Origin: an uncultured Gammaproteobacteria bacterium
GTDB lineage: Bacteria > Pseudomonadota > Gammaproteobacteria > UBA6002
Length of the DNA: 64,000 bases
Direction of reading: 5' to 3'
Assembly: GCA_963705725.1 (NCBI GenBank)
Contig: CAVPKM010000018.1
Location: forward strand, 4,657 to 68,656
Shown: piece by piece, positions 47,615 through 64,000 of the stretch
How positions within the stretch are numbered: position 1 is the first letter of the stretch
How the letters are laid out: each line of letters opens with the position of its first letter
Translations under genes and position numbers: made by a program
Notes under the pieces: generated by a model
Databases searched by the model: none
Seen by the model: only the letters and a program-made list of their open reading frames with translations
What the model was told of the DNA's origin: nothing

Positions 47615-47688
47615 GCCCCGATGGCACAGATGGATAGCGCAATCCCCTCCTAAGGGATAGGTCGCAGGTTCGAATCCTGCTCGGGGCG
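47615..47688 (+). tRNA. tRNA-Arg (anticodon CCU)
   Basis: Cloverleaf read directly. Acceptor GCCCCGA/TCGGGGC. Anticodon stem ATCCC/GGGAT with loop CTCCTAA. T-arm GCAGG-TTCGAAT-CCTGC. Discriminator G. No encoded CCA. Confidence 0.85.
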
Positions 47689-47726
47689 CTGTTTTCTTGA
47701 TCATGGGAAGTAGTCTACCCTTTTGC

Positions 47727-48380: not shown

Positions 48381-48579
48381 GCATTACTCTCTTTTTCCTA
48401 AATTGTTGAAAGGATGAAAATTCGGGATATTTATTTAGCACATTCAAATACTGATCTATTAATGCCCACAACTTTACATGTCCTTGCAAGCCCATCCAAT
48501 CAAACTGAAGATGTTTTTATCACGAGCTGAACATATATGATACTCTCTGTCCAAAGTCCTCGATGCTAAATTTTTATAT

Positions 48580-48730
48580 TTTAGTATTGTCTATATTGAT
48601 TTGAATGCTGATGTTTCTAAAAAGGGCTTAGTCATGTAAGGAGAAGCACAATGCACTACTACATTTAGTTGGGGTATAAAAATCCTTAATAATTTCTCAT
48701 GAATTCGTCGAGTGTGTTGTTATTAATTTT
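48580..48730 (-). pseudogene. Short-chain dehydrogenase gene fragment (remnant), paralogous to the SDR pseudogene at 53050-53400
   Basis: About 75% nucleotide identity over 60 nt with 53135-53195. It encodes ...NVVVHCASPYMTKPFLET and then a stop. Confidence 0.4.
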
Positions 48731-48759
48731 AGTTCCCTCAATATGCTTGAATCGTAACA

Positions 48760-50076: not shown

Positions 50077-50120
50077 AATCGACTCTTTTATATCTATAAA
50101 TTTTTGTGTTCGAAGATAGA

Positions 50121-50157
50121 AAAATATGAACGTTTCAATCCTGTGCTGAATAGTTAC
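50121..50157. repeat. Dispersed intergenic repeat copy (AAAATATGAACGTTTCAATCCTGTGCTGAATAGTTAC) between nadB and nadA
   Basis: Near-identical to the reverse complement of 4763-4792 (1 mismatch in 30) and to the 3' part of 4875-4915. Confidence 0.75.
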
Positions 50158-50307
50158 GTGATTTATTAATAAAATCCTCTCGATAATGACCGCCACGACT
50201 TTCACGGCGATTAATTGCAGAACGAACAATCAATTCAGCAATTAAGATAATATTTCTGAGCTCTATGAGATCCTTTGTGATGCTATATTTCCAATAATAA
50301 GCTTCTA

Positions 50308-51759
50308 TCATTTTTTTCGCGCCAGTACTAAGTTGAGTTGATCTCGTAAGCCGGCTTCTGTGCGTATAATGCCAGCGTAAGAACTCATCTCACCACGTAA
50401 CCCGCGCCAATGTACATTGATCTGGCTTGCACGTCGTAAATCGACAGTACTGGTAGAATCCCAATCCTTGACAGGCTGAAATAAACTAAGCGGTGTCTCT
50501 AATGCTGTACAACTAATTGCAGCAACATGACGTCCCATAACAATGCCCTCTAATAATGAATTACTAGCCAAACGATTCGCACCATGTAACCCGGTAAAAG
50601 CCGTTTCACCAATAGCATAAAGCCTTTTTAAATCTGTATTTCCATGAATGTTTGTTAGAATGCCGCCGTTCATATAATGAGCAGCCGGTACAACAGGAAT
50701 TAAATCTCGGCTTAAATCTAAATCAATATCAAGCAGCTTACGATAAATCATTGGAAAGCGTTGCTGTAAAAAAACTTTATCTTTATGACGGATATCTAAA
50801 TGAACATAGTCATAGCTGCTTTGTTCGATTTCACAAAAAATAGCACGTGCAACCACATCACGAGTAGCTAATTCCATTTTGTCAGGAGCGTAATGTTGCA
50901 TGAAGCGCTCACCTGTGGCTGGCAATCTTAAATAAGCTCCTTCGCCTCGTAATGCTTCAGAAAGAAGGAAGTTATTAAGTTTTGAAGAATATAATAATGT
51001 CGGATGAAATTGATAAAACTCTAATCCGTCAACTCGAGCACCTGCACGATATGCCATTGCCACTCCATCACCGGTGGCAACATTGAGATTTGAAGTATAT
51101 CGATATACTTTCCCTGCACCACCTGTCGCCAGAACAACCGCATTGGCAAGAAATGTATGTATCAGTCCAGTTTTAACTTCGAGCGCATATAGACCCACTA
51201 CTTCAGGAAAGCAAGCTGGCTGATGAGGTACCACCTGCGTAATTAGATTCACCGCGACATGTTCTTCAAATATAGTTATTTGTTGAAAATACTTTAGGCG
51301 CGCAATCAATGATTCAACAATTTCTTCACCTGTCCTATCCCCTACGTGATAAATACGTCGTTTCGAATGACCAGCTTCTTGACCACGAGCTAAGTTATTA
51401 TCAATATCACGATTAAAATTAACGCCTTGATTAAGCAGATATTGAATACTCTCAGGGCCCTGGTTCAAGATAGCTACGACAGCTTCCTCATTACATATAC
51501 CATCGCCTGATGATAGTGTGTCTGCTATATGCTGAACGATATCCTCCTTGCTTTCAGCAGCGGCAACGCCACCTTGCGCATAATAAGTATTGGATTCCTT
51601 GAGCTTACCTTTGCACACCAACGCAATTTTTAGACGAGGCTGTAACTTCAATAATTCTAATAAACAACATAAGCTTGCAATTCCACTTCCAACCATAATG
51701 AGATCAAATTGAAATCGGTGACCACGCTGAGAAATCGTTTTTTGCATGTTAAATATCAC
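50308..51759 (-). CDS. nadB: L-aspartate oxidase
   Basis: N-terminal FAD GxGxxG (VGSGIASL). Succinate DH / fumarate reductase flavoprotein fold motifs. Confidence 0.9.
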   Translation of the reverse strand: MIFNMQKTISQRGHRFQFDLIMVGSGIASLCCLLELLKLQPRLKIALVCKGKLKESNTYYAQGGVAAAESKEDIVQHIADTLSSGDGICNEEAVVAILNQGPESIQYLLNQGVNFNRDIDNNLARGQEAGHSKRRIYHVGDRTGEEIVESLIARLKYFQQITIFEEHVAVNLITQVVPHQPACFPEVVGLYALEVKTGLIHTFLANAVVLATGGAGKVYRYTSNLNVATGDGVAMAYRAGARVDGLEFYQFHPTLLYSSKLNNFLLSEALRGEGAYLRLPATGERFMQHYAPDKMELATRDVVARAIFCEIEQSSYDYVHLDIRHKDKVFLQQRFPMIYRKLLDIDLDLSRDLIPVVPAAHYMNGGILTNIHGNTDLKRLYAIGETAFTGLHGANRLASNSLLEGIVMGRHVAAISCTALETPLSLFQPVKDWDSTSTVDLRRASQINVHWRGLRGEMSSYAGIIRTEAGLRDQLNLVLARKK

Positions 51760-52633
51760 ACCTCATCGACAGATCGATATTTTCTGCTGAGTGAGTCAAC
51801 CCACCAACAGAAATAAAGTCAACTCCTGTTTCTGCAATGTCAACGACATTATCAAGACTTATATTTCCTGATGCTTCAGTAGGAATGATACCTTGGCACA
51901 TAGCCACACACTTTCCCATTAGGGGAAGCGTCATATTGTCTAATAGAACCCGGGTTACGATTTTTAAACCTTGTTTAATCACGATAGCCAATTCCTCTTG
52001 GCTACGCACTTCTACAATGACTGGAATTGGTGATGTGACATTTTTCATAAGCACATCCAAGGTTTTTTTCACACCACCTAATAAATCAATATGCGTATCT
52101 TTCACCATAACAGCATCATACAAACCCATACGATGATTAATGCCTCCTCCACAAAGGACTGCATATTTTTCTAGATGACGAAACCCAGGAAGTGTTTTGC
52201 GAGTATCCAAAATCTTTGTTTTTGTATGTTTCACTTTGGTAACGAACTGATTCGTAAGCGTTGCAATAGAAGAAAGGCGTTGAAGAAAATTAAGTAAAAG
52301 CCGTTCTGCAGCAAGTAATACTTGAGCAGGTCCTTTAACAGTCAAGACAACAGTAGCAGGAGGAATAGAATCTCCATCAAAATAGGCAGAGTGCACATCA
52401 CAGTGCACACTCAATTTTTGAAGTACTGCTCTAACAATAGGTAGACCGCAAATAATAACATCCCGTGGATGCTTTGATATGATTTTTGCACTCGCAATCT
52501 TATTATTATTTTCAGGGAATAACGCCATGGTAGTGACATCTTTATATGGCAACCCTAAATCTTCAGCAAGGGCAATGTCTATCAATCGTAAATCTAATTG
52601 ATTCAATTTTAAGGGTAATATTGTTGAAACCAT
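51749..52633 (-). CDS. nadC: Nicotinate-nucleotide pyrophosphorylase (carboxylating), quinolinate phosphoribosyltransferase
   Basis: QPRTase N and C domains. Overlaps the nadB start (operon). Confidence 0.85.
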   Translation of the reverse strand: MVSTILPLKLNQLDLRLIDIALAEDLGLPYKDVTTMALFPENNNKIASAKIISKHPRDVIICGLPIVRAVLQKLSVHCDVHSAYFDGDSIPPATVVLTVKGPAQVLLAAERLLLNFLQRLSSIATLTNQFVTKVKHTKTKILDTRKTLPGFRHLEKYAVLCGGGINHRMGLYDAVMVKDTHIDLLGGVKKTLDVLMKNVTSPIPVIVEVRSQEELAIVIKQGLKIVTRVLLDNMTLPLMGKCVAMCQGIIPTEASGNISLDNVVDIAETGVDFISVGGLTHSAENIDLSMRCDI

Positions 52634-53049
52634 AAAAAAATCCGATGTTCAAATGATAAAGAAAATTATACAACAAAATATTTTTGATGGAAATCAAATA
52701 AGGGTGAGGTTAAGTCAGTATGACAAACTATTCAAACCCTGCAAGGAATTTAAACTCGCAACTACTCAACACAGGATTAAAACATTTTTCTCTTTGGTGC
52801 AAATTTTTATGCCAAAACATTGCTACATAAGGTCCAAGAACAGATACATATGGAATCTTTGCCATTCGCATAAAAGTTTCTAGTTTCATGCAAAATGGAC
52901 TAGGGCTTGGCAGATTCCAAACCCGGTTGATATAGTTTTACAGTCAGATTTTTCATCAATCTACAAACTTGCAATTTAAGTATGAGAGGATGGAAACTCG
53001 ATAATCTCATTAGAATTTATATTGTATGTACCTATATTTTCTTTAGACA

Positions 53050-53398
53050 CTATTTTTTTATTGCTTGCTGAGCAAAATATTGATCACTTAGCATACAAGA
53101 AGTATATTCTTGCATTTCCTCAAAAGTCGTTTCTAAAAATGGTTTAGTCATATAAGGTGATGCACAATGTATCACTACCTCAAGGTGTGGTATTTCATTG
53201 AATATAGTAGATACCGATTCTTTCGTGTTATTCATTAAATCAAATTGAAAATTACGTTGAGTGTGAATTCTCTTTAATTTTAATACCGCTTGAAGATTAT
53301 GGAGATCTAGCAGCAGCATAAAGCTTTGCATTTCTTTCTTGAGCAACCCTCGGTAAAATTTCTCAACCTAATCCTCGATTAGCTCCGGTGACCAGCAT
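53050..53398 (-). pseudogene. Short-chain dehydrogenase pseudogene (N-terminal about 115 codons, disrupted by a stop and frameshifts)
   Basis: MLVTGANRGLG is followed by a stop. In a second frame: EILPRVAQERNAKLYAAARSP, then a stop. In a third frame: LDLHNLQAV...LEVVIHCASPYMTKPF. It is truncated before the catalytic S/YxxxK. Confidence 0.55.
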
Positions 53399-53448
53399 AT
53401 AAAACTCTGATGCTTTATATAGTATAATTTTTCCTCTAAAAAAAAATC

Positions 53449-53489
53449 TGAACGTTTAGCGACTTCTAGCGTTTCTGCTGAATAATTAC
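53449..53489. repeat. Dispersed intergenic repeat copy (TGAACGTTTAGCGACTTCTAGCGTTTCTGCTGAATAATTAC)
   Basis: Same architecture as 4875-4915 (TGAGCGTTT-GAGCCCCTT-TAGCGTTTGTGCTGAACAGTTAC). Confidence 0.7.
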
Positions 53490-54028
53490 AATAAAATTTA
53501 AGTAATTATTTTCAGGTATAGTTATTAGAAAAGCGGATACCATGATCTGTTCATATACTAATATCAGCTGGCACAGTTATTAAATAACAAATAATGTCGT
53601 TAAATCTGGCATTAGCTTTCTCATCGTTATCAGCTTCTTCAATTAAAGTAGAAAATAATTCATAGTAATTCTTTGCCAGTTTATTATCTATACACTGAAA
53701 ATAAAAAAATATTATTCAAGCAACTAAGCACAATGTTAATTCTGTAATTGACACGAATAAAATCTATAATAGGCCAGTCACTTTAATTGGCATAGTTTCG
53801 GTGGTGTTGTGATCAGTCAAGTAGCCGAACGAATACCTGAGCGGATTAAAGAATTAATTTACATGTGTGCTTTTATCCTTCCCAACGATTATACCATAGG
53901 CCACATCATTCAAGATGTCGGGGTTTATTTCATCGCTTTGCAATGAATTCATCTTTGATATGTGCACTGATGTAAAACCGTTCAACTCAAATAACGTAAT
54001 GATTGACTCATTTTTGATAAAAAATTTA

Positions 54029-54325
54029 CTACATTTGATTTTCTACGCTTTTAATTCTGTCTTTCATGCTTTCAGTTTTATCGGTACGACTATTTATCTT
54101 AATATTAGTCACCAAACGTGGAGCACCTAGCTTGTGTACTGCTTCAATACAAGATTTTATTGCATCAAGAACCTCATTGTAATCGCCTTCTATATTGGTT
54201 CCTTCCGCATGTAATTGAATAACTAACCCTTTATTTTTTAGAATACGTTCACATTCCGCGATGTATTTTGAAAAAGACACCCCTACACCTATAGGGATAA
54301 TTGATAATTCAACGATGATTTTCAT
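54029..54325 (-). CDS. MTH1187/YkoF-family (UPF0045) thiamine-binding-like protein
   Basis: MKIIVELSIIPIGVG...LHAEGTNIEGDYNEVLDAIKSCIEAV...GAPRLVTNIKINSRTD matches the family profile. Confidence 0.65.
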   Translation of the reverse strand: MKIIVELSIIPIGVGVSFSKYIAECERILKNKGLVIQLHAEGTNIEGDYNEVLDAIKSCIEAVHKLGAPRLVTNIKINSRTDKTESMKDRIKSVENQM

Positions 54326-54405
54326 ATAAAAATTCTCCAATTAATTAAATTTCTATCAACCTTTCACACAAGCTAACGCTTTTAAAAAAGTAACACGGCG
54401 GGTAA

Positions 54406-54804
54406 TCACACTAATTCACTTAATTCGTCCCTAACCGCATCCAAACCAGATTGAGCACATAACTCATCCAATTCAGGTGTTGCCCCACTAATCCCTATGC
54501 TACCTATGTGTTGACCATCTTGAGTGATAATGGGTAAACCACCACCGAGTAGCAGAATATCAGGTATTGCACTGTAAGGATTGGCAGCCATTTTTGAGCT
54601 TCGCTCTGCTAACGTTTTTGATGATAGTGGCATACTTGCAGAAGTCTTTGCTTTAAGTTGAGAAATCCTAATACTTCCATAACTAGTGTTATCCATGCGC
54701 TGAAAATATTTAAGATTGCCGCCATTGTCATAAATACTAATAACGATATTGATCTTGTTTTCGATAGCTTTTTTTTCTGTTGCTAGCGCTATTTTTTTTG
54801 CCAT
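54406..54804 (-). CDS. GlcG/HbpS-like (DUF336) protein, possibly N-terminally truncated
   Basis: LTLDMAKKIALATEKKA...NIVISIYDNGGNL...RISQLKAKTSA...LLLGGGLPI...IGSIGISG. The frame is open upstream with no ATG start. Confidence 0.55.
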   Translation of the reverse strand: MAKKIALATEKKAIENKINIVISIYDNGGNLKYFQRMDNTSYGSIRISQLKAKTSASMPLSSKTLAERSSKMAANPYSAIPDILLLGGGLPIITQDGQHIGSIGISGATPELDELCAQSGLDAVRDELSELV

Positions 54805-55106
54805 ATCCAGCGTTAGTGTTTTTTTAAAATTGTCATAACCCCCCTGATTTTAACTCACCTAGTATTCGCCCTGCCCTACACAATGACTTTCCAGTCATTA
54901 ATATCATTAACCTATATCATATCAGAAAGCCCCCAATAACATCATTTTGAGATAATTTTCATTGAATATCTCAAAGCAAAGTAGATATGTCACCATCCTA
55001 AGATACTTTGTTACCTCAAGCAGTTATCCCTAGGTCCCTTGAGGTTTCAGGAACAAAAATCGAGAAGTAAAAAGGTTATAAAGCTTTCTTAAAGTGCATA
55101 TGCGAT

Positions 55107-55199
55107 ATGAATATGATATTGAACAAAGATATATTAGTTGCTGGATTACGTTCTCGTGATGGAGCATCATATCAAATACTGCAGAATATCCCGAACTGA
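55107..55199 (+). pseudogene. ECF sigma-factor region-2 remnant
   Basis: A 31-codon fragment (MNMILNKDILVAGLRSRDGASYQILQNIPN) matches the DxxLVxxxxxGDxxAYxxLxxxY region-2 signature and is followed by a stop. Confidence 0.25.
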
Positions 55200-55495
55200 A
55201 AAATAAAATTGGTTATCTCTGTGACTCTTTTTATAGAATATGAATCGGTTTTAGAGCGACCCAGCTTTTTTTCAGACTCACAGAAAAGATGTCGATGCGA
55301 TTTTAAATATGCTGGGTTCAAAAGCGATTAGAACCCCCATTCAGCAAAGGGTTGAAACGTCCATATATTGCCGTCGGACTGTTTTTAGGTTAAAAGTTTA
55401 GTTGTAAAATATATTTTTTTCTTGGATATTTTAATATCTTTACGATATTATGATAATATTTAACGCGGAAAGTATCTAGATTAAAAAAAGCAGGC

Positions 55496-55972
55496 TTGTT
55501 AAGCAAGGAGACTATTGCAATTATTACTCGTGCTGCCCTGCTAACCTCAGCCGTTACGTTGCCTTTATTTACTGAAAGCTTGATCACGATAAATCAGCGT
55601 CTTACTGTGAGTAAGTTAATGATAGAGTATCTATTATCTAATGTGAATCTATCCACTTTAGTGACAAAATCTCTTCTTCGACTTAACCAGTTTTCGATTT
55701 GCACTGATCAGAATATTGAAATTTTGTTAAATCAACAGACTCACCCTCAAGAATTGACTAATTGTTTTGAAAAAATTATTAGCGATCATCTCGAAGAAGC
55801 TAGGTTGTATAATGATATGCAAATCAATTCTCTTGCACCAAAAGACGCCTGGACAACGATTTTTAGTTTTTTTGATAATAATGAGAAATTAAATTTAAAA
55901 AAGGTATCAACCCTGTTTGAACAAATTGCCAATGAACCTGATCATGGAAACAGCACTCAGAATAGAACTTAG
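55496..55972 (+). CDS. Hypothetical protein with a possible F-box-like motif (eukaryotic-like)
   Basis: LAPKDAWTTIFSFFDNNEKLNLKKVSTLFEQI resembles the F-box consensus LPxEiLxxIfsyLdxxdLxxlxxVcKxW. Confidence 0.3.
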   Translation: MLSKETIAIITRAALLTSAVTLPLFTESLITINQRLTVSKLMIEYLLSNVNLSTLVTKSLLRLNQFSICTDQNIEILLNQQTHPQELTNCFEKIISDHLEEARLYNDMQINSLAPKDAWTTIFSFFDNNEKLNLKKVSTLFEQIANEPDHGNSTQNRT

Positions 55973-56209
55973 GATCATGCACAAAATAAATATGGATTTT
56001 TAGGCTAGGAGATTTTTAATATTATCCAAATTTCAACAGAAAACTTAGAACTAAAATTTCTATAGAAGAATAATGAGCGTATAATATTTCAGTCCATTAT
56101 GAGAAATATGGCACTGGGCAAACAATGCGATCCCCTTCTCATAAAAAGTTTGCGCTCTTAGCGGTTCGAGTAATTTAAAACTCATGCTAAGAAAAATCAC
56201 AGGTGAAGA

Positions 56210-56617
56210 TCAGTGACTGTTGATTCTAGGAACATTAACCACACGTTCTAATGTACCTTTCTCAAGCGAGGATTGTTTTTTATTGAAGCCGGAATAGACA
56301 AATTTTAAATGCTCATGATCGACAATCAAGGTGTTAACTGAATGATCTTTTCCATACCATTGCAGGATTTCAATGGCATTTGCAATATTTACATGCTTAA
56401 CTTTATTTTTTTCTTGTTTGTTATTTTCGTTACTTGATAATTTTTTCCAATAGATCGTATCACGCCCTAATATAAGGTCATAACTGATTTTTCCATGATT
56501 GTAAATTGCCTTGTAATGTAGAGCTGTCATGGTCGTACCTGCTTGCGCTGCTGTGATCATACTGATGAAAAATAAGGTAAGTAAAAAGCGTTTTATTTTC
56601 CTGCAATCTCTTCTCAT
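56210..56617 (-). CDS. Hypothetical secreted protein (signal peptide)
   Basis: N-terminal basic region plus hydrophobic core plus AQA cleavage-like site. No recognisable domain. Confidence 0.35.
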   Translation of the reverse strand: MRRDCRKIKRFLLTLFFISMITAAQAGTTMTALHYKAIYNHGKISYDLILGRDTIYWKKLSSNENNKQEKNKVKHVNIANAIEILQWYGKDHSVNTLIVDHEHLKFVYSGFNKKQSSLEKGTLERVVNVPRINSH

Positions 56618-56675
56618 TTGATTTTATCCTCTCATATTATCAATTGCTTCTAACCCGATTGGTTTATCCCCTCCC

Positions 56676-56864
56676 TCAGGGCCTTGCACTTGCGCCTAGC
56701 CTGACCGAATAGATCGTACTCCACTTGGGGATATAAAAATTCTTCTTTACGCATTTCATTCTAGCGCGTACCTGGCCATGAGCAGGACTTTCAATCACAT
56801 ACGCTAATACTGCCTCCTCTGCCCCTTCAGCAAATCGGTAAAACGTAGCTCTTGAAAAGCCCAT
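56676..56864 (-). mobile_element. IS481-family transposase N-terminal remnant (internally deleted HTH region)
   Basis: GFSRATFYRF...EEAVLAYVIESPAHGQVRA parallels the IS481 motif SRATFYRW...EAAVLALRRAHPAWGPRKI. The segment is locally GC-rich relative to the surrounding AT-rich DNA. Confidence 0.45.
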
Positions 56865-56881
56865 TACTTTACAGGCTGTTA

Positions 56882-57619
56882 TTATAAATTATTGAAATTT
56901 AAATTTAAGTCTGTTTTGTCAATGTAATCTATCTGTTGATCTTTTTCATATGTTGAATTATTGACCTCGAGAGCTATATCAATTGCATCCATAATTTCTT
57001 TGTAAACACCTTCAGTTTCAGAATATCGGGTGAATGCTCCCCACAAAACGTAAGCGCCAGTCATGATTTTCAAGTAACGGCATGGTTGATCATCTGCGCT
57101 AAGGTTAGTAATAACAGTTTTAAGTTCAGACGCTTGATCTTTATTCAAATAAATGAGGGAGCACATAATTAATTTCTTTGCCAACATTTTCTTTGTTGTA
57201 TTGGTAAATAAAAAATTACACCCTATTTTTATCAATTCATTTTTCAACCAATCGATAGATGTATTTTTCAAATCGATAAGATCATATTTATTAATACAAT
57301 CATCAATATTAGTTACCACAAAAGAACCTAAACTAGAATGAGATACTACACTCAAATCCATAGATTTCATAAACTGAGATATCTCTAGATGTAGAATATC
57401 AATCATAGCTATATTTTTTGTTGTGTTATTTAATGAAACTCCACAAAAGAATTTTCCATCAAAAAAAGTCTCTAACTCAATTGCTATAACAGGACATAGC
57501 CCCTGAGCCAGATAAAGATTGCTACTATTTTTGACTACCTCTGATGAATATATCTCTAAAAGAGTAGTTTTTTTATCCATAGCCTCTAAGCGGGTAAATT
57601 TTTCATGCATTGTTATCAA
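56882..57619 (-). CDS. Hypothetical protein (245 aa), no recognisable domain
   Basis: Long ORF with a clear upstream region. N/K/I-rich composition typical of an accessory or effector gene. Confidence 0.35.
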   Translation of the reverse strand: MITMHEKFTRLEAMDKKTTLLEIYSSEVVKNSSNLYLAQGLCPVIAIELETFFDGKFFCGVSLNNTTKNIAMIDILHLEISQFMKSMDLSVVSHSSLGSFVVTNIDDCINKYDLIDLKNTSIDWLKNELIKIGCNFLFTNTTKKMLAKKLIMCSLIYLNKDQASELKTVITNLSADDQPCRYLKIMTGAYVLWGAFTRYSETEGVYKEIMDAIDIALEVNNSTYEKDQQIDYIDKTDLNLNFNNL

Positions 57620-57723
57620 CCTTACTTCAGTTTTATATCTTAGTGAAAAGAAAATTTATAAATAATAGAATTGCATAATAATAAAAAAAACACTTTAATA
57701 AAATAGCCAATTTTGATAGATTA

Positions 57724-57743
57724 TTGTTTCATATATGAAACAA
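57724..57743. promoter_or_regulatory. Perfect 20 bp palindrome TTGTTTCATATATGAAACAA (LysR T-N11-A box), 10 bp upstream of the LysR gene start
   Basis: Read directly from the sequence. It sits in the divergent intergenic region between 56882-57619(-) and 57754(+). Confidence 0.6.
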
Positions 57744-57753
57744 TGGAACTAAT

Positions 57754-58647
57754 GTGATTCGGAATGCCTTATCATTTACAGCTGTCATTAAAGCAGGCAG
57801 CTTTTCAAAAGCAAGCAAAGTGATTGGGCTTTCAAAAGCTCAATTAAGCCGCCATGTAAGTGAATTAGAAAAACAACTTGGCATCCAATTGTTATATCGC
57901 ACGACAAGAAAGCTTTTGTTAACAGAGTCGGGCAGGATTTTTTTTGAGTCATGCCTTGAAATAGAGAAAAGTTATGACATGGCACTGGATAAAGTCACTA
58001 AAGATAATACTTTAATTAAAGGTCCTTTACGAATAACAGCCCCCATTTCTTTTGGATCTGAGCTTCTGCTTAAGATAATCAATAATTTTGTTAAGAAATA
58101 TCCAAACATTAATATTACACTTTCATTGAATAGCGTAACAGAAGATCTGATTGAGAATAATTATGATATTGCTTTACGAGTTGCATCTGCTTTGCCAAAC
58201 TCAAATCTGCGCATGAAAGTTATTCATCATTTTGATATGGTTTTATGCGCATCTCCAGATTATTTTAAAAATATTAGTCATCCAAATGAGCTTGAAGAAC
58301 TCAAATATTTCAAATTTATTACGCCAGTGAATAGAAACAATGAAGTTAAAAATATTAAATGGCCATTTATCATCAATGAAAAAATTGTTAACTATTCACC
58401 AAATAGCTTAATTCAGGTAGATAGCTTACGAATGCAAATTGAGCTTGTTTTATTAGGTGCTGGTATTGGTAGAGCTCCAAGATTTATGATCAAAAATGAA
58501 TTAGAAGAAAACAAATTAGTAGAAATTCTTGCCCACATAAAACAACCCAAATATCATCTTTACCTTCTTTATCCTAATAGAAAACACTTGCCAAAAAAGA
58601 CAAAAGTTTTTATTGATTTCCTAGCAAACTCTTTAGCTAACATTTAA
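57754..58647 (+). CDS. LysR-family transcriptional regulator
   Basis: N-terminal wHTH (LSFTAVIKAGSFSKASKVIGLSKAQLSRHVSELEKQLGIQLLYRTTRK). C-terminal substrate-binding domain. GTG start. Confidence 0.85.
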   Translation: MIRNALSFTAVIKAGSFSKASKVIGLSKAQLSRHVSELEKQLGIQLLYRTTRKLLLTESGRIFFESCLEIEKSYDMALDKVTKDNTLIKGPLRITAPISFGSELLLKIINNFVKKYPNINITLSLNSVTEDLIENNYDIALRVASALPNSNLRMKVIHHFDMVLCASPDYFKNISHPNELEELKYFKFITPVNRNNEVKNIKWPFIINEKIVNYSPNSLIQVDSLRMQIELVLLGAGIGRAPRFMIKNELEENKLVEILAHIKQPKYHLYLLYPNRKHLPKKTKVFIDFLANSLANI

Positions 58648-59072
58648 AGAATTATGTCGTATTTACAGGATTTCCGGGTGATATTCAATAGGACTGCAAC
58701 ACGCCTGCTATTTTTTATTACCTAAGTAAAATTCGATCCTTCTATTTTCAAAACCTCCCGCGCCGTACTCCAGGAATTCTGGAAGAGCCAATTTTCTGAA
58801 TCACTTTATTCACATTTTTTGAAATCTGCTCATAAATTTATTCGGGCAGCCTAATAGCTTACCAAGATTTTCAATAGGATAGCTATATTCTGACCCCATC
58901 TTTATCAGCATATGGGCAATGAGTTCTTCTGCAGCATAAATACCCTCCTCATCTGAACTAAGAACGTATTCGCCACACCGTTTAAAACCATTCAAATGAA
59001 AAACTGACACAGTTTTTTGAACACTCCCCAACTGCTGATCAAGTCTAAAATTTTACAGCTAATATTTCCATA

Positions 59073-59378
59073 TTATTTAACTACAACTCCTATATTTTGG
59101 AATTCCATAGCTCCAGTAAAATTTATTAAAATTTCTTTCTGCTTTTCTTTAGATACCAGTGTTCCATCATCCCATTTTACGAATGCATTTGAGCTAACTA
59201 TTACACAAAATCTACCGTCTGATAAACGCCCATAATCAACTTTCAATGGATTGGCATTTATTTCCTTCTCGATATTCAATTTTAAATCGGGCAACAGATT
59301 GAACTATAAATCCTTTACTACTTTTTACACCTTGCTTATTTATCCATGTAAACATTTCTAACACTTCTTTTAATTAAT
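59073..59378 (-). pseudogene. Cassette gene c1, frameshifted paralogue of c2 (61243-61551)
   Basis: The C-terminal ORF 59073-59294 (…DGRFCVIVSSNAFVKWDDG…KQKEILINF) aligns to c2 (…DARKWILVSNGIKFELVHDD…SEQLVLEI). The N-terminal part lies in another frame at about 59295-59378 (GFIVQSVARFKIEY ~ VTFSVVNDWDSFDKLVTF). Confidence 0.45.
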
Positions 59379-59520
59379 ATCCAAAATAATACTTTGGCTT
59401 TATATTTAATTCATCTAACCTAAATTATTTCTATTTGCTCGAAGAATATTTCAGTGGCGATTATTTAAATAGTGAAAATTCAAACTAATTCAAATAAGGC
59501 ATCTCTAGGTTTTGATGGAT

Positions 59521-59808
59521 TTAAGAAGCCCAACAAGTTTTATCTGGAAGCTCGCCGTTTTTCCAATGCTTTATTATTGCTAATATTGCTCGCTGGATAT
59601 ACATACCCTTATCTCCTTCCGCAAGCTCCACAATGTCAACATCACCAGTGGTTTTGTTAATTTTAACTCTGCCCCGCACCAATTTTGATATCCCTCTTAA
59701 CCTACCCGCTGCATTTTTAATAGGCTCAGTGGGTAAATTAAATTCGTACACATAATAAACAAAACCTTGCTGGTCAATATCTTTATATAGCTCAATAGAA
59801 AATGCCAT
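59521..59808 (-). CDS. Cassette gene b1, a small protein of unknown family with C-terminal HWxxGExPxKTxWAS
   Basis: 95 aa. Paralogue of b2 (61684-61971) across the full length (roughly one third identical). Its ATG directly follows the TAA of a1. Confidence 0.5.
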   Translation of the reverse strand: MAFSIELYKDIDQQGFVYYVYEFNLPTEPIKNAAGRLRGISKLVRGRVKINKTTGDVDIVELAEGDKGMYIQRAILAIIKHWKNGELPDKTCWAS

Positions 59809-59991
59809 TTATGGCCTCAAGCTCATTGTAGATGTAGTTACAAACTCATCAGGATTCCAAGTCCGACTTGAGAGATTTGAGGCATTATGAGTTATATAAT
59901 CGTTTTTAAATAATATTTCCAACCTAGTTTCGAAATATTCGTGTTGTAATAGCTCGATATCTTGTTTAACAAAATTACCTTTCTGCCTCAT
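59809..59991 (-). CDS. Cassette gene a1, a small protein of unknown function
   Basis: 60 aa. Its C-terminus SSRTWNPDEFVTT aligns with a degraded copy upstream of b2 (TGRIWNLEKFIT). Confidence 0.4.
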   Translation of the reverse strand: MRQKGNFVKQDIELLQHEYFETRLEILFKNDYITHNASNLSSRTWNPDEFVTTSTMSLRP

Positions 59992-60189
59992 GCGTCAGCA
60001 TTTTCTATATATGGAGCAAATCAATTTAGACCGGTAGAAAGCTGATGTACATCAAAAAATAAATGTTGCTTAATACGTTAGATTTTAAAATCTTTCATTA
60101 GCTTCGGTTGCTAACTCTCACAAAGCAGTAAAGCTTGTGAATTAATTTCTTCCAGGCCACTTGGATAGATAATATCAATACTCTTTAAT

Positions 60190-60429
60190 TCATTTTTTAT
60201 TTTCATACCATCCTTCACGAAAAGCCTGATCAGATATTTTTAAAACCCAACTCTGCCCACATTTAATGCATTTATATTGTAACTCAATAAAAGGACTCTT
60301 AGGCTTAATTTCACCTAGCTTAATCAAAATATCTTCTTTTATCAAAACATGAATTCTATTAGCAAATTTTAAATAGATTTCTTCAGTTTTAAATGGACCT
60401 TTTTTTAAATTACAAAATATACAACTCAT
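60190..60429 (-). CDS. Small CxxC...CxxC zinc-ribbon protein (P3), last gene of a three-ORF overlapping operon
   Basis: SCIFCN ... CIKCGQ. Its start overlaps the P2 stop (ATGA). Confidence 0.45.
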   Translation of the reverse strand: MSCIFCNLKKGPFKTEEIYLKFANRIHVLIKEDILIKLGEIKPKSPFIELQYKCIKCGQSWVLKISDQAFREGWYENKK

Positions 60430-60711
60430 TTTTTTAACCTATAAACATACACATCTTCAATCGAAACAGGTTCAATTAAAAATTGTGGCGAATGTCCAGA
60501 ACCTGCATTTGGATATGAATTTGTAAATGGCTCGTAACCAATTTCAACATTATAACCAATCTGTTTTTTTTTGCCTTGCCATGCGGTAATGTACTGTGCG
60601 CCGTCTGCGTTTTGGTTGCTCTCTTGGACCCATATTAATCAGAATGTGAGCTGCTGCTTTTTGAGCTGGACCTAAATCTTCGCATAATAATATGTTAATG
60701 GATTTATTCAT
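60426..60711 (-). pseudogene. Small protein P2, interrupted by a frameshift in a T9 homopolymer (plus-strand 60564-60572). With 8 T it would be a 94-aa protein.
   Basis: Frame A (60550-60711) encodes MNKSINILLCEDLGPAQKAAAHILINMGPREQPKRRRRTVHYRMARQKK... Frame B continues ...KKQIGYNVEIGYEPFTNSYPNAGSGHSPQFLIEPVSIEDVYVYRLKK to the stop at 60426. Its start overlaps the P1 stop. Confidence 0.4.
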
Positions 60712-60988
60712 TCATACATTTCGATAATTTATACCCAAGCTCAGTAAGTTCTGTGCAACGTTTAAATATTGGTTTATCCCAATCCATGCTTTCTAGACAA
60801 AATCTATCTAATAAAATAGTAGCCTTCTCCACACTACCTGAAGTATTTGCATTAATTATATTTTTCAAATAGGTATTAAGATTATTTATCAAATACCATT
60901 CCAAGCTTTCAGTTTGAGGAAATGTATTTTTAAGGTCATTAATATATTGCTTAATTTTACTCATTAATTCTATTTTACTAATATTCAT
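60704..60988 (-). CDS. Small hypothetical protein P1 (94 aa), first gene of the P1-P2-P3 operon
   Basis: ORF with no recognisable domain. Tight overlap with P2. Confidence 0.35.
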   Translation of the reverse strand: MNISKIELMSKIKQYINDLKNTFPQTESLEWYLINNLNTYLKNIINANTSGSVEKATILLDRFCLESMDWDKPIFKRCTELTELGYKLSKCMNE

Positions 60989-61242
60989 AATTAATAACCA
61001 TATTCATAGTATTTCTCGGCATCATTATTTCATTAAATTTATATTGACCTAGTGGTCCTAATAAAAATTTTTGCATTTCCCCTTCAATCAGTCCTGGACT
61101 AAATCTTAACTGTGGAGCAAACTTAACCTTTACATTTGAATTAATACACAATTCTTCATTTAAGAATGCAGGGTCTCATTCTGGTGATGGCACTACCATT
61201 GGTGGTTTAAAAGAGTACCAAAATTATTAAAAACAGCGATAT

Positions 61243-61551
61243 TTATTTATTATTTTGAAGTCTTTGTTCTAAATCAGCAGTAATTTCAAGAACTAGCTGT
61301 TCACTTTCTTCCGTAGGAGCTAAAAAATAATTACCATAAACATCATCGTGGACTAATTCGAACTTAATGCCATTACTTACTAGAATCCACTTTCTAGCAT
61401 CCGGACCATCAGCTTTTGTCAAAGCCTTAGCCGAATAATGACTTTCAACAAAAGTCACCAATTTATCAAAACTATCCCAATCATTAACTACTGAAAAAGT
61501 GACTTCCAAAGGCTTTCCTGCTGTTTTTGTGATCATTCGTTTAATTTTCAT
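61243..61551 (-). CDS. Cassette gene c2 (intact, 102 aa), unknown function
   Basis: Paralogue of the frameshifted c1. Acidic C-terminus. Confidence 0.45.
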   Translation of the reverse strand: MKIKRMITKTAGKPLEVTFSVVNDWDSFDKLVTFVESHYSAKALTKADGPDARKWILVSNGIKFELVHDDVYGNYFLAPTEESEQLVLEITADLEQRLQNNK

Positions 61552-61683
61552 TATTTCCTCTTAGGTGCAAATTATTCGTAAGCCCACAAGCTTCATCTAC
61601 TTTAATATTTGTCCGCTGAGCTATCAGCCACATATCCTCACAAAGTATCATAGGCCTTCTCCACATTATCATCGAATATTTAT

Positions 61684-61971
61684 TCAAGAAGCCCAAGTAG
61701 TTTTCTCTGGAAACTCTCCTGTTAGCCAATGTTTCATTAATGCCCAACTGGCTCTTTTTGCATGGTTGCCTTGATCACCTTCAGCAAATTCAATCACATA
61801 GACATCTCCTTTTAGCTTATCTAGTTTTAAAATTCCTGAGACTAATTTTGATTTAAATCTAATTTTACCGGTAGAAGATTTGTATTGATCCCCAGGAAGC
61901 TTAAATTGATATTTGTAATGAATAAAATACTTGTCTTCTTTCATTTTGATTACCTCCACATAAAATGCCAT
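61684..61971 (-). CDS. Cassette gene b2, paralogue of b1
   Basis: MAFYVEVIK...HWLTGEFPEKTTWAS; start taken at MAF. Upstream of it (about 61972-62090) is a frameshifted a2 remnant (FESRFEGIFKTD / NGLITAHEAANDTGRIWNLEKFITQFGMCWKK). Confidence 0.5.
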   Translation of the reverse strand: MAFYVEVIKMKEDKYFIHYKYQFKLPGDQYKSSTGKIRFKSKLVSGILKLDKLKGDVYVIEFAEGDQGNHAKRASWALMKHWLTGEFPEKTTWAS

Positions 61972-63334
61972 ATTATTTTTTCCAGCACATTCCAAATTGC
62001 GTTATAAATTTTTCTAGATTCCAAATTCTTCCTGTATCATTGGCTGCTTCATGTGCAGTAATTAGTCCGTTTTAAATATACCTTCAAATCTTGATTCAAA
62101 TCTGAGCCAAAAGAAAAATTGCGATGATGCAAGGAATATTAAACACTATCCACACAATTTTCATTTATTACATACTTAACTTCTTTTATATTTATTGGCT
62201 TCTCTATAATAGAAATTTCTAATGGATAGATGTCTAGATTCCTTGAAGACAAGAGTCTATTAATTATCGCTTCTCCTATGACTTTTTTGTCTGAATTTGC
62301 TAAAAAAATAAACTTCTTGGAATTTAGCATTGTTAAATAATCAACACTTACGATTATTATCCATGAATTAAAAACAAATAACATTTCATTTCAGGAATAA
62401 ATATCGACACTTTTTTTTAACATCTCTTCATTATCCCAATTGAATATCTTATGGTGTCTATACATAAAGTCTCTTACATGCCATTCTCTAAAGACAGTTG
62501 TCTCAAAGCTTGTATGTGAATTCCCCAAATTTTAGATTGAACACCATGAAGCAACTCTTCTACAATAGTTAATCTAGGATTTCATTTTAATAATAATTGA
62601 TAAATTATCAGGCCCTCCTGCGGCTGCATCAGCTTTTACCATTTCTAAAAATCTAAGATTATCAGAACCTGGCTGAGAATATAAATATCGCTTTTTTTAA
62701 AAATTAATTCCGTCTAACTTCTAGACCAAGCTGATCGCACCACTTATCCTACATTTAATCAGTTAGCTACCTCTCTTGGCCGTGATGGATTGAAAGACAG
62801 CGTATTAGATTATCCTTATGCCCTTTGCTAAGCGAAGAAATATCAGGCCTAATGAAGGGAAATTTCTAAAATATCTCACTTCGCGTTTAAAATTAAAGAC
62901 GAGATTGTTTAAAAACTAGGTGCTTTATCAAAAGCAAATAATCTGGCTGCAGCAGGCATGCAAGCTACTTCAAAGGATAACAGGGATTCCCGAACTCAAA
63001 CCCTACTACTTGAATATCTTGATTTGGAGCTTAAACAAGAAGTCCTTAGTAGTTATTCTGAAATAAAACATCGGTTAATAAATAAAACTACTTGTCAACA
63101 AGATATTTTATATCTCTATCGCAAATCAAAAAGCGCAACCAAAGTCAAACCAGTTATCTAAAGCAAAGCCTGTACTTTTTCTGAAAACTATATCGGGCAG
63201 CGAAAAGGATATGTACCCAGGCAACGGGTGAAATTCTGGCAAACTCGTCAATAACCTCTTGAGAAGCGCCTTCCTGAATCATTTTCTTATAAACAGTCAG
63301 AACCGGACAAACTACTTAATTAGACATAGATCAC

Positions 63335-64000
63335 CTATAGTTTTGTTTGTAACAAATTTTGGCTCGATAAGCTATTAACTTTTTCTTCTAGAAATTTAGA
63401 GATAGTAGTCCTTTGCTTTCTAAAGCCAGCTTTTCTATCAATTGGATCTAGTTTATCCTCTTCTTTTAAATTCCTATTCATTTCACCAAATATTTCCTTA
63501 AGTTCTTTGTACTGAGCTTCTGACATTGTTATTGCAAAAGGCGCAATAACAAATCTTAAGCCCGTCCGAAATCCATAGGTACTAGATCGTAAACTTGCCC
63601 AACTGTGATATATAAGAGAATCCTGATTTTTAGCCTGATCAAAGTATTCCATGAATAATTTTTTATAATTGGTAGAAATATCCAATTGTTTCATGTTAAG
63701 TGTTAAATCATCTTTCTTATCTGATCTTTTCCATTGGATGACTTCTTCTAATTGATTAATAGAATGCAATAATTCACTGATCTGTGGATTATCCTCATTG
63801 CCTATTTTTAATGGGAACCCAATTGCCATTAATCTTTTTTTATTTGGATTACCTTTATGATTAAATTCAAATACAGTGTGAATTTCGCCATCAAACTTTT
63901 CGCCATCTAAATCATATTCATTCTCTTCACCATCTTTTTCAAAATGAATATGTGTGTGCTGTAAGGTATAGTCAGCGCCGCGGAAATGAACTCGCGTATT
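63335..64000 (-). CDS. Alpha-class carbonic anhydrase-like protein (eukaryotic-type), 5'-partial; the gene starts beyond the window end
   Basis: The frame is open from nt 64000. YTLQHTHIHF...GEENEYDLDGEKFDGEIHTVFEF aligns to the alpha-CA zinc-ligand region SYRLIQFHFHWG...[21 protein letters not shown]. Confidence 0.6.
   Translation of the reverse strand, partial: NTRVHFRGADYTLQHTHIHFEKDGEENEYDLDGEKFDGEIHTVFEFNHKGNPNKKRLMAIGFPLKIGNEDNPQISELLHSINQLEEVIQWKRSDKKDDLTLNMKQLDISTNYKKLFMEYFDQAKNQDSLIYHSWASLRSSTYGFRTGLRFVIAPFAITMSEAQYKELKEIFGEMNRNLKEEDKLDPIDRKAGFRKQRTTISKFLEEKVNSLSSQNLLQTKL

What the first reader, a model, noticed from the sequence alone, without database searches (positions are those of the whole stretch)
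52634..64000. AT-rich gene-graveyard accessory region downstream of nadABC
Coding density falls sharply after nadC. The region contains:
- an SDR pseudogene with an in-frame stop and two frameshifts (53050-53398);
- an ECF-sigma region-2 remnant (55107-55199);
- an IS481-like transposase HTH remnant on a locally GC-rich patch (56676-56864);
- unassignable gene fragments at 62400-62830 (for example RYLYSQPGSDNLRFLEMVKADAAAGG on the minus strand and LDQADRTTYPTFNQLATSLGRDGLKDSVLDYPYAL on the plus strand);
- small intact genes (YkoF-like, GlcG-like, a LysR regulator), a secreted hypothetical, a possible F-box protein, the duplicated cassette and an alpha-carbonic anhydrase.

This pattern is typical of horizontally acquired DNA undergoing reductive decay in a host-restricted bacterium. 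tRNA-Arg(CCU) lies 5 kb upstream, but there is no adjacent integrase, so the island boundaries are unclear.
Basis: partly seen in the sequence, partly recalled or inferred. Interest (0 to 1): 0.55.

Follow-up and report, generated by a model that had tools for sequence, protein, structure and literature searches.

The report
Decayed toxin-immunity cassette array
The gene-poor, AT-rich stretch beside the NAD-synthesis genes is an accessory region, and its right-hand 4 kb is an ordinary array of leftover bacterial toxin-tip and immunity-gene cassettes in which the toxin pieces have decayed and the immunity genes are intact.

Summary
The observation largely holds. ORFs of at least 80 aa cover 95% of 1-52633 but only 52% of 52634-64000, and GC drops from 38.3% to 32.8%.

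Confirmed features:
- an SDR pseudogene;
- an IS481-type HTH remnant;
- intact YkoF-like, GlcG-like and LysR genes;
- a diverged duplicated gene.

The 'ECF sigma remnant' is really a truncated PIN_3 (VapC-like) pseudogene.

The main result concerns 58.8-62.7 kb, which is not random debris. It is a same-strand array of orphan polymorphic-toxin C-terminal (CT)/immunity cassettes.
- Two intact 95-aa paralogues (46% identical) belong to an immunity-like family.
- In 17 of 25 evaluable metagenome loci that family sits directly behind a conserved ~110-aa toxin tip.
- That tip caps large proteins elsewhere, and occurs as an orphan behind a 3801-aa RHS gene.
- In the window the same tip is present only as stop- and frameshift-ridden remnants.

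Independent Logan contigs reproduce most of these lesions exactly. 'Reductive decay of a host-restricted bacterium' is not supported. This is a known kind of locus; the two toxin tips and the immunity family match no Pfam family, and tip A and the immunity family have no solved relative.

The parts
52979..53398 (-). SDR (adh_short) pseudogene. Only the N-terminal half survives, with in-frame stops and frame changes.
   Evidence: Three-frame reading. The stitched 153 aa hit adh_short at E 6.6e-8, profile positions 3-110 of 195. Coordinates. Identical in Logan contig L041.
54029..54340 (-). Intact YkoF/Thiamine_BP-family gene.
   Evidence: Pfam PF01910, E 7.8e-30.
54406..54804 (-). Intact GlcG/HbpS-like gene.
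   Evidence: Pfam PF03928, E 1.5e-30.
55071..55328 (+). PIN_3 (VapC-like) pseudogene. It has an in-frame stop at 55197-55199 and lacks the C-terminal half.
   Evidence: Pfam PF13470, E 2.6e-6, 28.7 bits, profile positions 7-61 of 115; seen again. The stop lies within Logan contigs L041 and L010, which match at 100% there.
55496..55972 (+). 158-aa hypothetical protein. The F-box resemblance is below threshold.
   Evidence: F-box E 0.0075, 16.6 bits against a cut-off of 20.5. No PDB sequence match.
56210..56617 (-). 135-aa hypothetical protein whose N-terminus looks like a signal peptide.
   Evidence: The sequence begins MRRDCRKIKRFLLTLFFISMITAAQA (judged by eye). No Pfam hit.
56679..56876 (-). 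IS481-family transposase N-terminal HTH remnant on a GC-rich patch.
   Evidence: HTH_29 E 4.6e-4. tblastn to annotated IS481 family transposases at E 5e-7. Local GC 0.476. No DDE domain found.
56882..57619 (-). 245-aa hypothetical protein.
   Evidence: No hit in Pfam, PHROGs, NCBIfam, PADLOC, the PDB or plasmids.
57754..58647 (+). Intact LysR-type regulator.
   Evidence: HTH_1 and LysR_substrate.
58810..59031 (-). 73-aa ORF, the last small gene of the array. Candidate immunity gene; inferred from position only.
   Evidence: Same strand and same size class as its neighbours. No homologue found.
59076..59355 (-). Array gene of about 100 aa, split by one frameshift near 59255.
   Evidence: Intact homologues exist: a 101-aa ORF next to an immunity-A gene in L014, and L018 12612-12896. 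Sequence. No Logan contig fetched here covers this stretch, so the frameshift is unconfirmed.
59521..59808 (-). Immunity-like gene A1, 95 aa, intact.
   Evidence: Family alignment with 27 invariant columns. HMM E 1e-47. AlphaFold pLDDT 89. A GAGG lies 8 nt upstream of the ATG.
59812..60098 (-). Decayed toxin tip, type A (remnant A1). It covers about the last 100 codons, with two in-frame stops and a frame change, and abuts the A1 start codon.
   Evidence: tblastn with the L009 599-aa protein, E 1.3e-28. HMM E 1.4e-26. Identical in Logan contig L008.
60190..60429 (-). 79-aa ORF with two CxxC pairs. Candidate immunity gene; inferred from position only.
   Evidence: ORF list. No homologue found.
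60704..60988 (-). 94-aa ORF, overlapped by 11 nt by an upstream 57-aa ORF fragment (60978-61151). Candidate immunity gene with a toxin-tail remnant; inferred.
   Evidence: ORF geometry. No homologue found.
61243..61551 (-). 102-aa gene of a DUF3630-related family. It has a strong Shine-Dalgarno sequence and is overlapped by 11 nt by an upstream ORF fragment (61541-61747). Real gene; its role in the array is inferred.
   Evidence: 134 cluster representatives at E<=1e-3. 18 of 36 members hit DUF3630, best E 1.2e-6. AAGAGGA lies upstream of the ATG.
61684..61971 (-). Immunity-like gene A2, 95 aa, intact, 46% identical to A1.
   Evidence: BLASTP E 4e-33. HMM E 2.9e-48. Identical in Logan contig L040.
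61976..62100 (-). Short remnant of toxin tip type A (remnant A2): the last 42 or so codons, in two frames.
   Evidence: tblastn with the L009 protein, residues 558-599. Hits to six loci.
62139..62384 (-). 81-aa ORF directly behind the type-B remnant. Candidate cognate immunity gene, by position only.
   Evidence: ORF list. No detectable similarity to the genes that follow type-B toxins in L018 and L035.
62394..62696 (-). Decayed toxin tip, type B, in three frames.
   Evidence: It aligns to the C-terminus of the RHS protein of L018 (joint E 6.7e-5 for two segments). More weakly, but collinearly, it aligns to the 696-aa ORF of L035. Identical in Logan contig L040.
63335..64000 (-). Alpha-carbonic-anhydrase-like ORF that runs off the window.
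   Evidence: Carb_anhydrase E 2.4e-6, 27.8 bits against a cut-off of 27, profile positions 77-176 of 254.

Best explanation
The region has two parts.

**Left part, 52.6-58.7 kb.** This is a low-GC accessory patch. It mixes a few intact small genes (YkoF-like, GlcG-like, LysR and three hypotheticals) with three dead genes: an SDR, a PIN_3 toxin and the HTH of an IS481 transposase.

**Right part, about 58.8-62.7 kb.** This is an array of seven or eight orphan polymorphic-toxin cassettes, all on the minus strand.

*Shown:*
- Two cassettes are 'type A'. Each has a remnant of a conserved toxin C-terminal domain of about 110 aa, followed directly by an intact 95-aa immunity-like gene.
- One cassette carries a remnant of a second toxin tip, 'type B', which ends an RHS protein elsewhere.
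- One cassette gene of about 100 aa is frameshifted.

*Inferred:*
- The other small ORFs (58810, 60190, 60704, 61243, 62139) are further immunity genes, some with short toxin-tail remnants overlapping their starts.
- The mechanism is taken from what is established for Rhs and CDI loci (PMC3150448, PMC3967940). Toxin-tip/immunity modules arrive by horizontal transfer and recombination, and are displaced or stranded without the N-terminal delivery part.
- The stranded toxin fragments cannot be delivered, so they decay.
- The immunity genes stay under selection because they protect the cell against neighbours that deliver the matching toxins.
- Two immunity paralogues only 46% identical would widen protection to two variants of the type-A toxin.

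The biochemical activity of the type-A tip is unknown. It is predicted to be all-helical and has invariant His, Glu and Asp residues, including an HEYxE motif.
For: **Conserved pairing**
- Immunity-A homologues were found in 28 metagenome loci, plus L009 and L039.
- In 17 of the 25 loci that have upstream DNA, the ORF immediately upstream on the same strand ends in the type-A tip (HMM E 1e-18 to 1e-83).

**The tip is a polymorphic-toxin end**
- It ends a 2291-aa ankyrin-repeat protein in L025.
- It ends the 599-aa L009 protein. The 882-aa relative P0013 shares the body of that protein (62% identity over 82% of the query) but has a different C-terminus, followed by its own 125-aa gene.
- In L039 it is a 99-aa orphan with a 95-aa immunity gene, directly behind a 3801-aa RHS gene and that gene's own 123-aa partner.
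- Type B ends a 3112-aa protein with RHS repeats (E 1.2e-43) in L018. That gene is followed by an array containing an immunity-A homologue, a RES-domain orphan and a homologue of window gene 59076-59355.

**Window anatomy**
- Remnant A1: E 1.3e-28, two stops and a frame change. Remnant A2: the last 42 codons only. Remnant B: three frames.
- Both immunity genes are full length and keep all 27 family-invariant residues.

**Sequence reliability and statistics**
- The lesions are reproduced at 100% identity in Logan contigs.
- ORF excess is strand-biased: 10 against 0.71 expected.
- GC is low, and GC3 is lower in the region's genes: 0.267 against 0.303, p=0.008.
- There are no anti-phage (PADLOC), phage (PHROGs) or RNA-family hits.
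Against: - No full-length toxin gene and no RHS-core remnant is visible in the window. Upstream of the array lie 630 bp with no Pfam-recognisable remnant and a carbonic-anhydrase-like gene, and the window then ends.
- Five of the small ORFs have no homologue among the fetched loci or the curated libraries. Their immunity role rests only on position, size and strand.
- The 61243 gene belongs to a broad DUF3630-related family that is not known to be an immunity family.
- ORF 62139-62384 shows no similarity to the genes that follow type-B toxins elsewhere.
- Neither toxicity nor neutralisation has been tested for this pair. The toxin model is only moderate (pLDDT 67), and neither model has a meaningful PDB match.
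- The frameshift at 59255 is not independently confirmed.
Confidence: 0.78

Rival explanations
1. One reading: an unstructured graveyard of horizontally acquired genes, eroding as part of genome reduction in a host-restricted bacterium.
For: - The region holds real pseudogenes: SDR, PIN_3, the IS481 remnant and the toxin remnants.
- Coding density is low.
- The non-ORF DNA has the same GC as backbone intergenic DNA, 0.33.
Against: - The backbone is 95% coding, so there is no sign of genome-wide erosion in the 52 kb that can be seen.
- The decay in the array is selective. The toxin tips are broken, while both immunity paralogues are intact with all invariant residues.
- The small ORFs sit almost entirely on one strand, far beyond chance.
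Confidence: 0.12
2. An acquired immunity island, comparable to the acquired interbacterial defence clusters of Bacteroidales. On this view the cassettes were imported as a defensive set and this locus never held a resident toxin gene.
For: - No main toxin gene or RHS-core remnant is present in the window.
- An IS481 remnant lies nearby.
- GC is low.
- Solitary members of the immunity family occur elsewhere, for example in L019, L022, L033 and L034.
Against: - The immunity genes still carry pieces of their toxin tips, as in Rhs and CDI orphan modules.
- No recombinase or integrase gene is in the region.
- The sequence beyond 64000, where a main gene could lie, was not available.
Confidence: 0.2
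3. The small gene pairs are chromosomal type II toxin-antitoxin or anti-phage defence modules, not secreted-toxin cassettes.
For: - A PIN_3 remnant shows that TA-type genes have been in this region.
- The pairs are small and overlap.
- Rhs orphans have been reported to behave like TA modules in Salmonella (PMC7043789, title and abstract seen).
Against: - The type-A tip is found at the end of proteins of 600 to 2291 aa and behind an RHS gene.
- The gene order is toxin first, then immunity.
- There are no PADLOC or PHROGs hits.
Confidence: 0.05
4. The fragmentation is an assembly or sequencing artefact of a metagenome-assembled genome.
For: - The window differs from Logan contig L041 by one base in an A7/A8 run, which splits nadB at about 50310. 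So at least one homopolymer discrepancy exists.
- The frameshift at 59255 lies in a stretch that no Logan contig fetched here covers.
Against: - Logan contigs are 100% identical to the window across the SDR, PIN, IS481, A1, A2 and B lesions.
- Many of these lesions are stop codons or large truncations, not single indels.
Confidence: 0.03

Closest known systems
Orphan rhs-CT/rhsI modules downstream of Rhs genes (Dickeya dadantii, Salmonella Typhimurium, Serratia; PMC3150448, PMC3967940, PMC10539506)
   Same: - Toxin-tip fragments without the delivery part, each followed by a small immunity gene, in same-strand arrays.
- The type-B tip ends an RHS protein in L018, and the type-A tip is an orphan behind an RHS gene in L039.
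   Different: - No RHS repeats, no RHS core and no main rhs gene are seen in the window.
- The toxin fragments here are degraded by stops and frameshifts. In the published cases the orphans still encode active toxins.
- The type-A tip also rides on non-RHS bodies: an ankyrin-repeat protein, and the L009/P0013 type.
Orphan cdiA-CT/cdiI arrays of contact-dependent inhibition loci (E. coli EC93 and EC869, Yersinia; PMC3150448)
   Same: - An array of up to about ten toxin-tip/immunity pairs.
- The toxin fragments lack start signals while the immunity genes can be expressed.
- The proposed role is a repertoire of immunity genes.
   Different: - There is no CdiB or CdiA and no VENN junction motif.
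- The sequence families are different.
Acquired interbacterial defence (orphan immunity) gene clusters of Bacteroidales (PMC12247911, PMC10470768)
   Same: Intact immunity genes are kept without a working cognate toxin. Their presumed role is protection against toxins delivered by neighbours.
   Different: - Those clusters are mostly immunity genes alone and are often linked to a recombinase.
- Here toxin-tip remnants are still attached and no recombinase is present.
Pfam DUF3630
   Same: The 102-aa gene 61243-61551 and half of its sampled relatives give weak to moderate DUF3630 hits.
   Different: - The window protein itself is below the Pfam cut-off: 18 bits against 25.
- The family has no known function, and no paper in the library mentions it.

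Membership tests
Polymorphic toxin system (toxin C-terminal domain plus immunity pair) | The toxin domain sits at the extreme C-terminus of large proteins. | tested here: met
   Type A ends the 2291-aa protein of L025 and the 599-aa protein of L009. Type B ends the 3112-aa RHS protein of L018 and the 696-aa ORF of L035.
Polymorphic toxin system (toxin C-terminal domain plus immunity pair) | The same protein body carries alternative C-terminal domains (polymorphism). | tested here: met
   P0012 and P0013 are 62% identical over 82% of the query, but their C-termini are unrelated and each has its own downstream small gene.
Polymorphic toxin system (toxin C-terminal domain plus immunity pair) | A small immunity gene lies immediately downstream on the same strand, and this linkage is conserved. 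| tested here: met
   17 of 25 evaluable loci pair the type-A tip with the 95-aa family. In the window both copies abut or overlap the remnants.
Polymorphic toxin system (toxin C-terminal domain plus immunity pair) | The C-terminal domain is toxic, and only its cognate immunity protein neutralises it. | not testable with these tools
   This needs expression and competition assays. No Pfam, PDB-sequence or Foldseek match suggests an activity.
Orphan module of an Rhs locus | The module lies downstream of a full-length rhs gene. | tested here: inconclusive
   Nothing RHS-like was found up to 64000, but only 1.3 kb upstream of the array can be seen. The arrangement is present in L039 and L018.
Orphan module of an Rhs locus | The orphan keeps part of the RHS core or the junction sequence upstream of the toxin tip. 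| tested here: not met
   tblastn with the last 700 aa of the L018 and L039 RHS proteins matches only the type-B tip itself. So the cassettes are filed as polymorphic-toxin cassettes, not specifically as Rhs orphans.
tRNA-linked genomic island | An integrase next to the tRNA and a direct repeat of the tRNA 3' end at the far border. | tested here: not met
   No integrase was found in six-frame Pfam scans of the region. The 23-nt 3' end of tRNA-Arg occurs once in the window, even with 3 mismatches allowed. The conserved nadA, nadB and nadC genes lie between the tRNA and the region.
Short-chain dehydrogenase (adh_short) | A full Rossmann fold with TGxxxGxG and the catalytic YxxxK. | tested here: not met
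   TGANRGLG is present, but only profile positions 3-110 of 195 survive, interrupted by stops and frame changes. No YxxxK segment is present. It is a pseudogene.
   No sigma-70 hit even at E<=5. The stretch matches PIN_3 instead.
IS481 transposase | An N-terminal HTH plus a DDE catalytic domain. | tested here: not met
   Only the HTH part is present, and no DDE or rve domain appears in any frame. It is a remnant.

The most novel reading that the evidence does not exclude
The type-A toxin tip and its 95-aa partner could be a previously undescribed toxin/immunity family with a new fold or activity.
- The tip is about 110 aa and predicted to be all-helical. Its invariant residues include H69, H75, D87, E89, H112-E113-Y114-x-E116 and H131 in P0014 numbering.
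- The pair is spread across bacteria with 32-68% GC and rides on RHS, ankyrin-repeat and other bodies.
- On this reading the organism, a deep-branching gammaproteobacterium, has dropped the weapons at this locus but kept two diverged shields. That would imply regular contact with toxin-bearing relatives.
Probability: 0.35. Interest if true: 0.45.

Novelty: new member of a known kind. Interest (0 to 1): 0.33.

Why it matters
- **Annotation.** A stretch that looks like junk is largely an ordered immunity repertoire. Its small ORFs should be kept as genes, not discarded.
- **Ecology.** Intact orphan immunity genes beside dead toxin tips suggest that this little-known gammaproteobacterium meets neighbours armed with RHS-type and other polymorphic toxins. 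That fits poorly with the picture of a secluded, host-restricted organism.
- **Biochemistry.** The type-A tip and its immunity partner, and the type-B tip, match no Pfam family; type A and the immunity family also match no solved structure. They are candidates for characterising new toxin activities.
- **Limits.** None of this is surprising in kind. Orphan toxin/immunity arrays are well documented.

Tried and rejected
- **Synteny.** The only genome-contig scan, run with NadC, found relatives at 65% identity or less. They share the nadC-nadB-nadA block but nothing upstream of nadC, either with the window or with each other. Synteny therefore cannot place the borders of the region.
- **Extending past 64000.** Exact-protein look-ups returned only short Logan contigs of ERR10755948. 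The 135-kb NCBI contig was never delivered.
- **First six-frame Pfam scan.** I scanned concatenated stop-to-stop segments. This missed the SDR and PIN remnants because stops cut them apart. Frame-continuous readings recovered them. A second scan of the remaining gaps added nothing.
- **Library searches of the small ORFs.** PHROGs, NCBIfam and PADLOC gave nothing.
- **Other searches.**
  - Plasmid tblastn for immunity A and for the 245-aa protein found no match.
  - Rfam found no match.
  - Repeat search found no flanking repeats of note.
  - phmmer of the unassigned small ORFs against all fetched loci found no hits.
- **Rejected ideas.**
  - ORF 62139-62384 is homologous to the type-B immunity genes of L018 and L035.
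  - The 123-aa gene of L039 belongs to the DUF3630-like family.

Full report
**1. What is there**

The window is about 38% GC and tightly packed up to nadC (51749-52633, minus strand).
- Non-overlapping ORFs of at least 80 aa cover 95% of 1-52633 and only 52% of 52634-64000.
- GC is 0.383 in the backbone and 0.328 in the region. No 11.4-kb backbone window is below 0.366.
- Genes in the region are lower in GC at all codon positions. GC3 is 0.267 against 0.303 (p=0.008). The non-ORF DNA has the GC of backbone intergenic DNA, 0.33.
- tRNA-Arg(CCT) is at 47615-47689. It is separated from the region by an NTP-transferase gene and by nadA, nadB and nadC.
- The order nadC-nadB-nadA is kept in the four nearest genomes.
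- The region lies upstream of the nadC start codon, not downstream of the operon in the transcriptional sense.

**2. Is the sequence reliable?**

Four contigs assembled independently by Logan from run ERR10755948 match the window.

| Logan contig | Window span |
|---|---|
| L041 | 48412-55216 |
| L010 | 55189-59039 |
| L008 | 59388-61292 |
| L040 | 61486-62810 |

- Inside the finding they are 100% identical. The stops and frame changes of the SDR, PIN, IS481, A1, A2 and B remnants are therefore not errors of the MAG assembly.
- The only difference is outside the finding. An A7 run in the window against A8 in Logan, at about 50310, splits nadB in the window. With A8, nadB is an intact 537-aa gene.
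- No Logan contig fetched here covers 59040-59387, 61293-61485 or 62811-64000.

**3. Left part, 52.6-58.7 kb**

- The SDR pseudogene is real. At 52979-53398(-) it carries the TGANRGLG motif, then an in-frame stop, then further stops and frame changes. The stitched reading hits adh_short at E 6.6e-8, but only over profile positions 3-110 of 195.
- The YkoF-like, GlcG-like and LysR genes are intact.
- The GC-rich patch at 56679-56876 (GC 0.476) encodes an HTH that matches annotated IS481 family transposases (tblastn E 5e-7). No catalytic domain is left.
Read through its in-frame stop (55197-55199), the stretch 55071-55328(+) matches the N-terminal half of PIN_3, a VapC-type toxin domain, at E 2.6e-6 and 28.7 bits.
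- The F-box suggestion for 55496-55972 is below threshold.
- The 135-aa and 245-aa proteins have no detectable relatives in any curated library.

**4. Right part: the key result**

*The immunity-like family*
- The 'duplicated cassette' is a pair of 95-aa proteins, 59521-59808 and 61684-61971, that are 46% identical.
- They belong to a family with 27 invariant positions, of the form ...ELAEGDxG...GEFPDKTCWAS.
- I fetched 28 metagenome loci with an alignment of this family, plus L009 and L039.

*Its toxin partner, type A*
- In 17 of the 25 loci that have upstream DNA, the ORF immediately upstream on the same strand ends in one conserved domain of about 110 aa. Its pattern is ...NTGMPxFQ(V/I)QRIKxHLF..TH.L..G..RFxPDxEIAxAW.RL..G.F..QD..LL.HEY(F/Y)E.RF.G(I/V)...(D/N)Y.TAH....
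- That domain ends a 2291-aa ankyrin-repeat protein in L025.
- It also ends a 599-aa protein in L009. The 882-aa relative P0013 shares the body of that protein but has a different tip and a different downstream gene.
- In L039 it is a 99-aa orphan with its 95-aa partner, sitting right behind a 3801-aa RHS gene and that gene's own small partner.
- Together these are the defining features of a polymorphic toxin/immunity pair.

*What the window holds*
- The window carries the same tip only as wreckage.
- 59812-60098(-) matches the last 100 or so residues (E 1.3e-28) but has two in-frame stops and a frame change.
- 61976-62100(-) keeps only the last 42 or so codons.

**5. More cassettes**

  - ...PGSDNLRFLEMVKADAAAGGPDNLSIIIK
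  - ...TIVEELLHGVQSKI
  - ...HVRDFMYRHHKIFNWDNEEML
- This tip ends a 3112-aa protein with RHS repeats (E 1.2e-43) in L018 and a 696-aa ORF in L035.
- Downstream of the L018 RHS gene there is an array containing a frameshifted immunity-A homologue, a RES-domain orphan toxin, and a homologue of window gene 59076-59355.
- Window gene 59076-59355 is split by one frameshift. It is intact in L014 and L018.
- The remaining minus-strand ORFs (58810, 60190, 60704, 61243, 62139) have the size, strand and spacing of immunity genes. Three are overlapped or preceded by short ORF fragments, as if by toxin tails. This role is inferred only.
- One of them, 61243-61551, is certainly a real gene. It has 134 cluster representatives at E<=1e-3 and is related to DUF3630.
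- The minus strand of 58700-62400 has 10 stop-free stretches of at least 70 codons, against 0.71 expected.

**6. How it most likely works**

This follows what has been shown for Rhs and CDI loci (PMC3150448, PMC3967940; the review PMC4436062 was seen only as title and abstract).
- Tip/immunity modules are exchanged horizontally and stranded without the delivery part.
- Stranded tips are useless and decay.
- Immunity genes are kept because they protect against neighbours that deliver the matching toxin.

The asymmetry seen here fits that model: every recognisable toxin tip is broken and both A-type immunity genes are intact. It does not fit neutral erosion of the whole region. Whether a main toxin gene lies beyond 64000 or elsewhere in the genome could not be checked.

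The activity of the type-A tip is unknown.
- It has no Pfam family and no PDB sequence match.
- Its model is all-helical with pLDDT 67 and has no structural match.
- The immunity model is confident (pLDDT 89). It shows five strands and one helix (DSSP) and also has no meaningful structural match.

**7. Comparison and verdict**

- The locus works like an orphan Rhs or CDI module array, or like an orphan-immunity island.
- I do not file it as an 'Rhs orphan' in the strict sense. No RHS core or junction sequence and no main rhs gene is present in the window.
- It is not a tRNA-linked island, nor a phage or anti-phage system.
The 'reductive decay in a host-restricted bacterium' reading is replaced by a small accessory patch with a few dead genes, plus a decayed polymorphic-toxin cassette array that keeps its immunity genes.
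- The kind is known. The two toxin tips and the immunity family match no Pfam family, and type A and the immunity family have no solved relative. Interest is modest.

Noticed in passing
window 50300-50320 (nadB): The window has A7 where Logan contig L041 has A8. With A8, nadB is an intact 537-aa gene. In the window it is split into a 483-aa and a 58-aa ORF. This is probably a homopolymer error or a variant in the MAG, and it lies outside the finding.
   Followed up: yes
window 55071-55328 (+): A truncated PIN_3 (VapC-like) toxin pseudogene with an in-frame stop. No antitoxin gene was recognised upstream of it.
   Followed up: partly
P0021: A 4561-aa protein in the representative library matches the 102-aa DUF3630-like window protein in 52 separate stretches. 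It appears to be a giant tandem array of this small domain.
   Followed up: no
window 59040-59387 and 61293-61485: The Logan contigs fetched here end and restart at these two places. The first gap coincides with the frameshifted array gene. This could reflect strain variation or low coverage there.
   Followed up: no
L018 10234-11328; L025 13079-17746: Related arrays carry other toxin types. L018 has a 364-aa orphan with a RES domain behind its RHS gene. L025 has a second large ankyrin-repeat protein that ends in Tox-MPTase4.
   Followed up: partly
window 63335-64000 (-): The carbonic-anhydrase-like ORF keeps the three zinc-ligand histidines (HTHIH...EIH, read by eye). Only positions 77-176 of the Pfam profile match, at threshold. 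The C-terminal half is very divergent, and the gene is cut by the end of the window.
   Followed up: partly
context of P0013 (GCA_041443065.1): The 882-aa relative of the L009 toxin body is preceded by overlapping ORFs of 722 and 772 aa with no Pfam hits. It lies near ankyrin-repeat and CsrA genes. This may be one very large toxin of an undescribed type, split into three ORFs.
   Followed up: no
It remains unexplained.
   Followed up: partly
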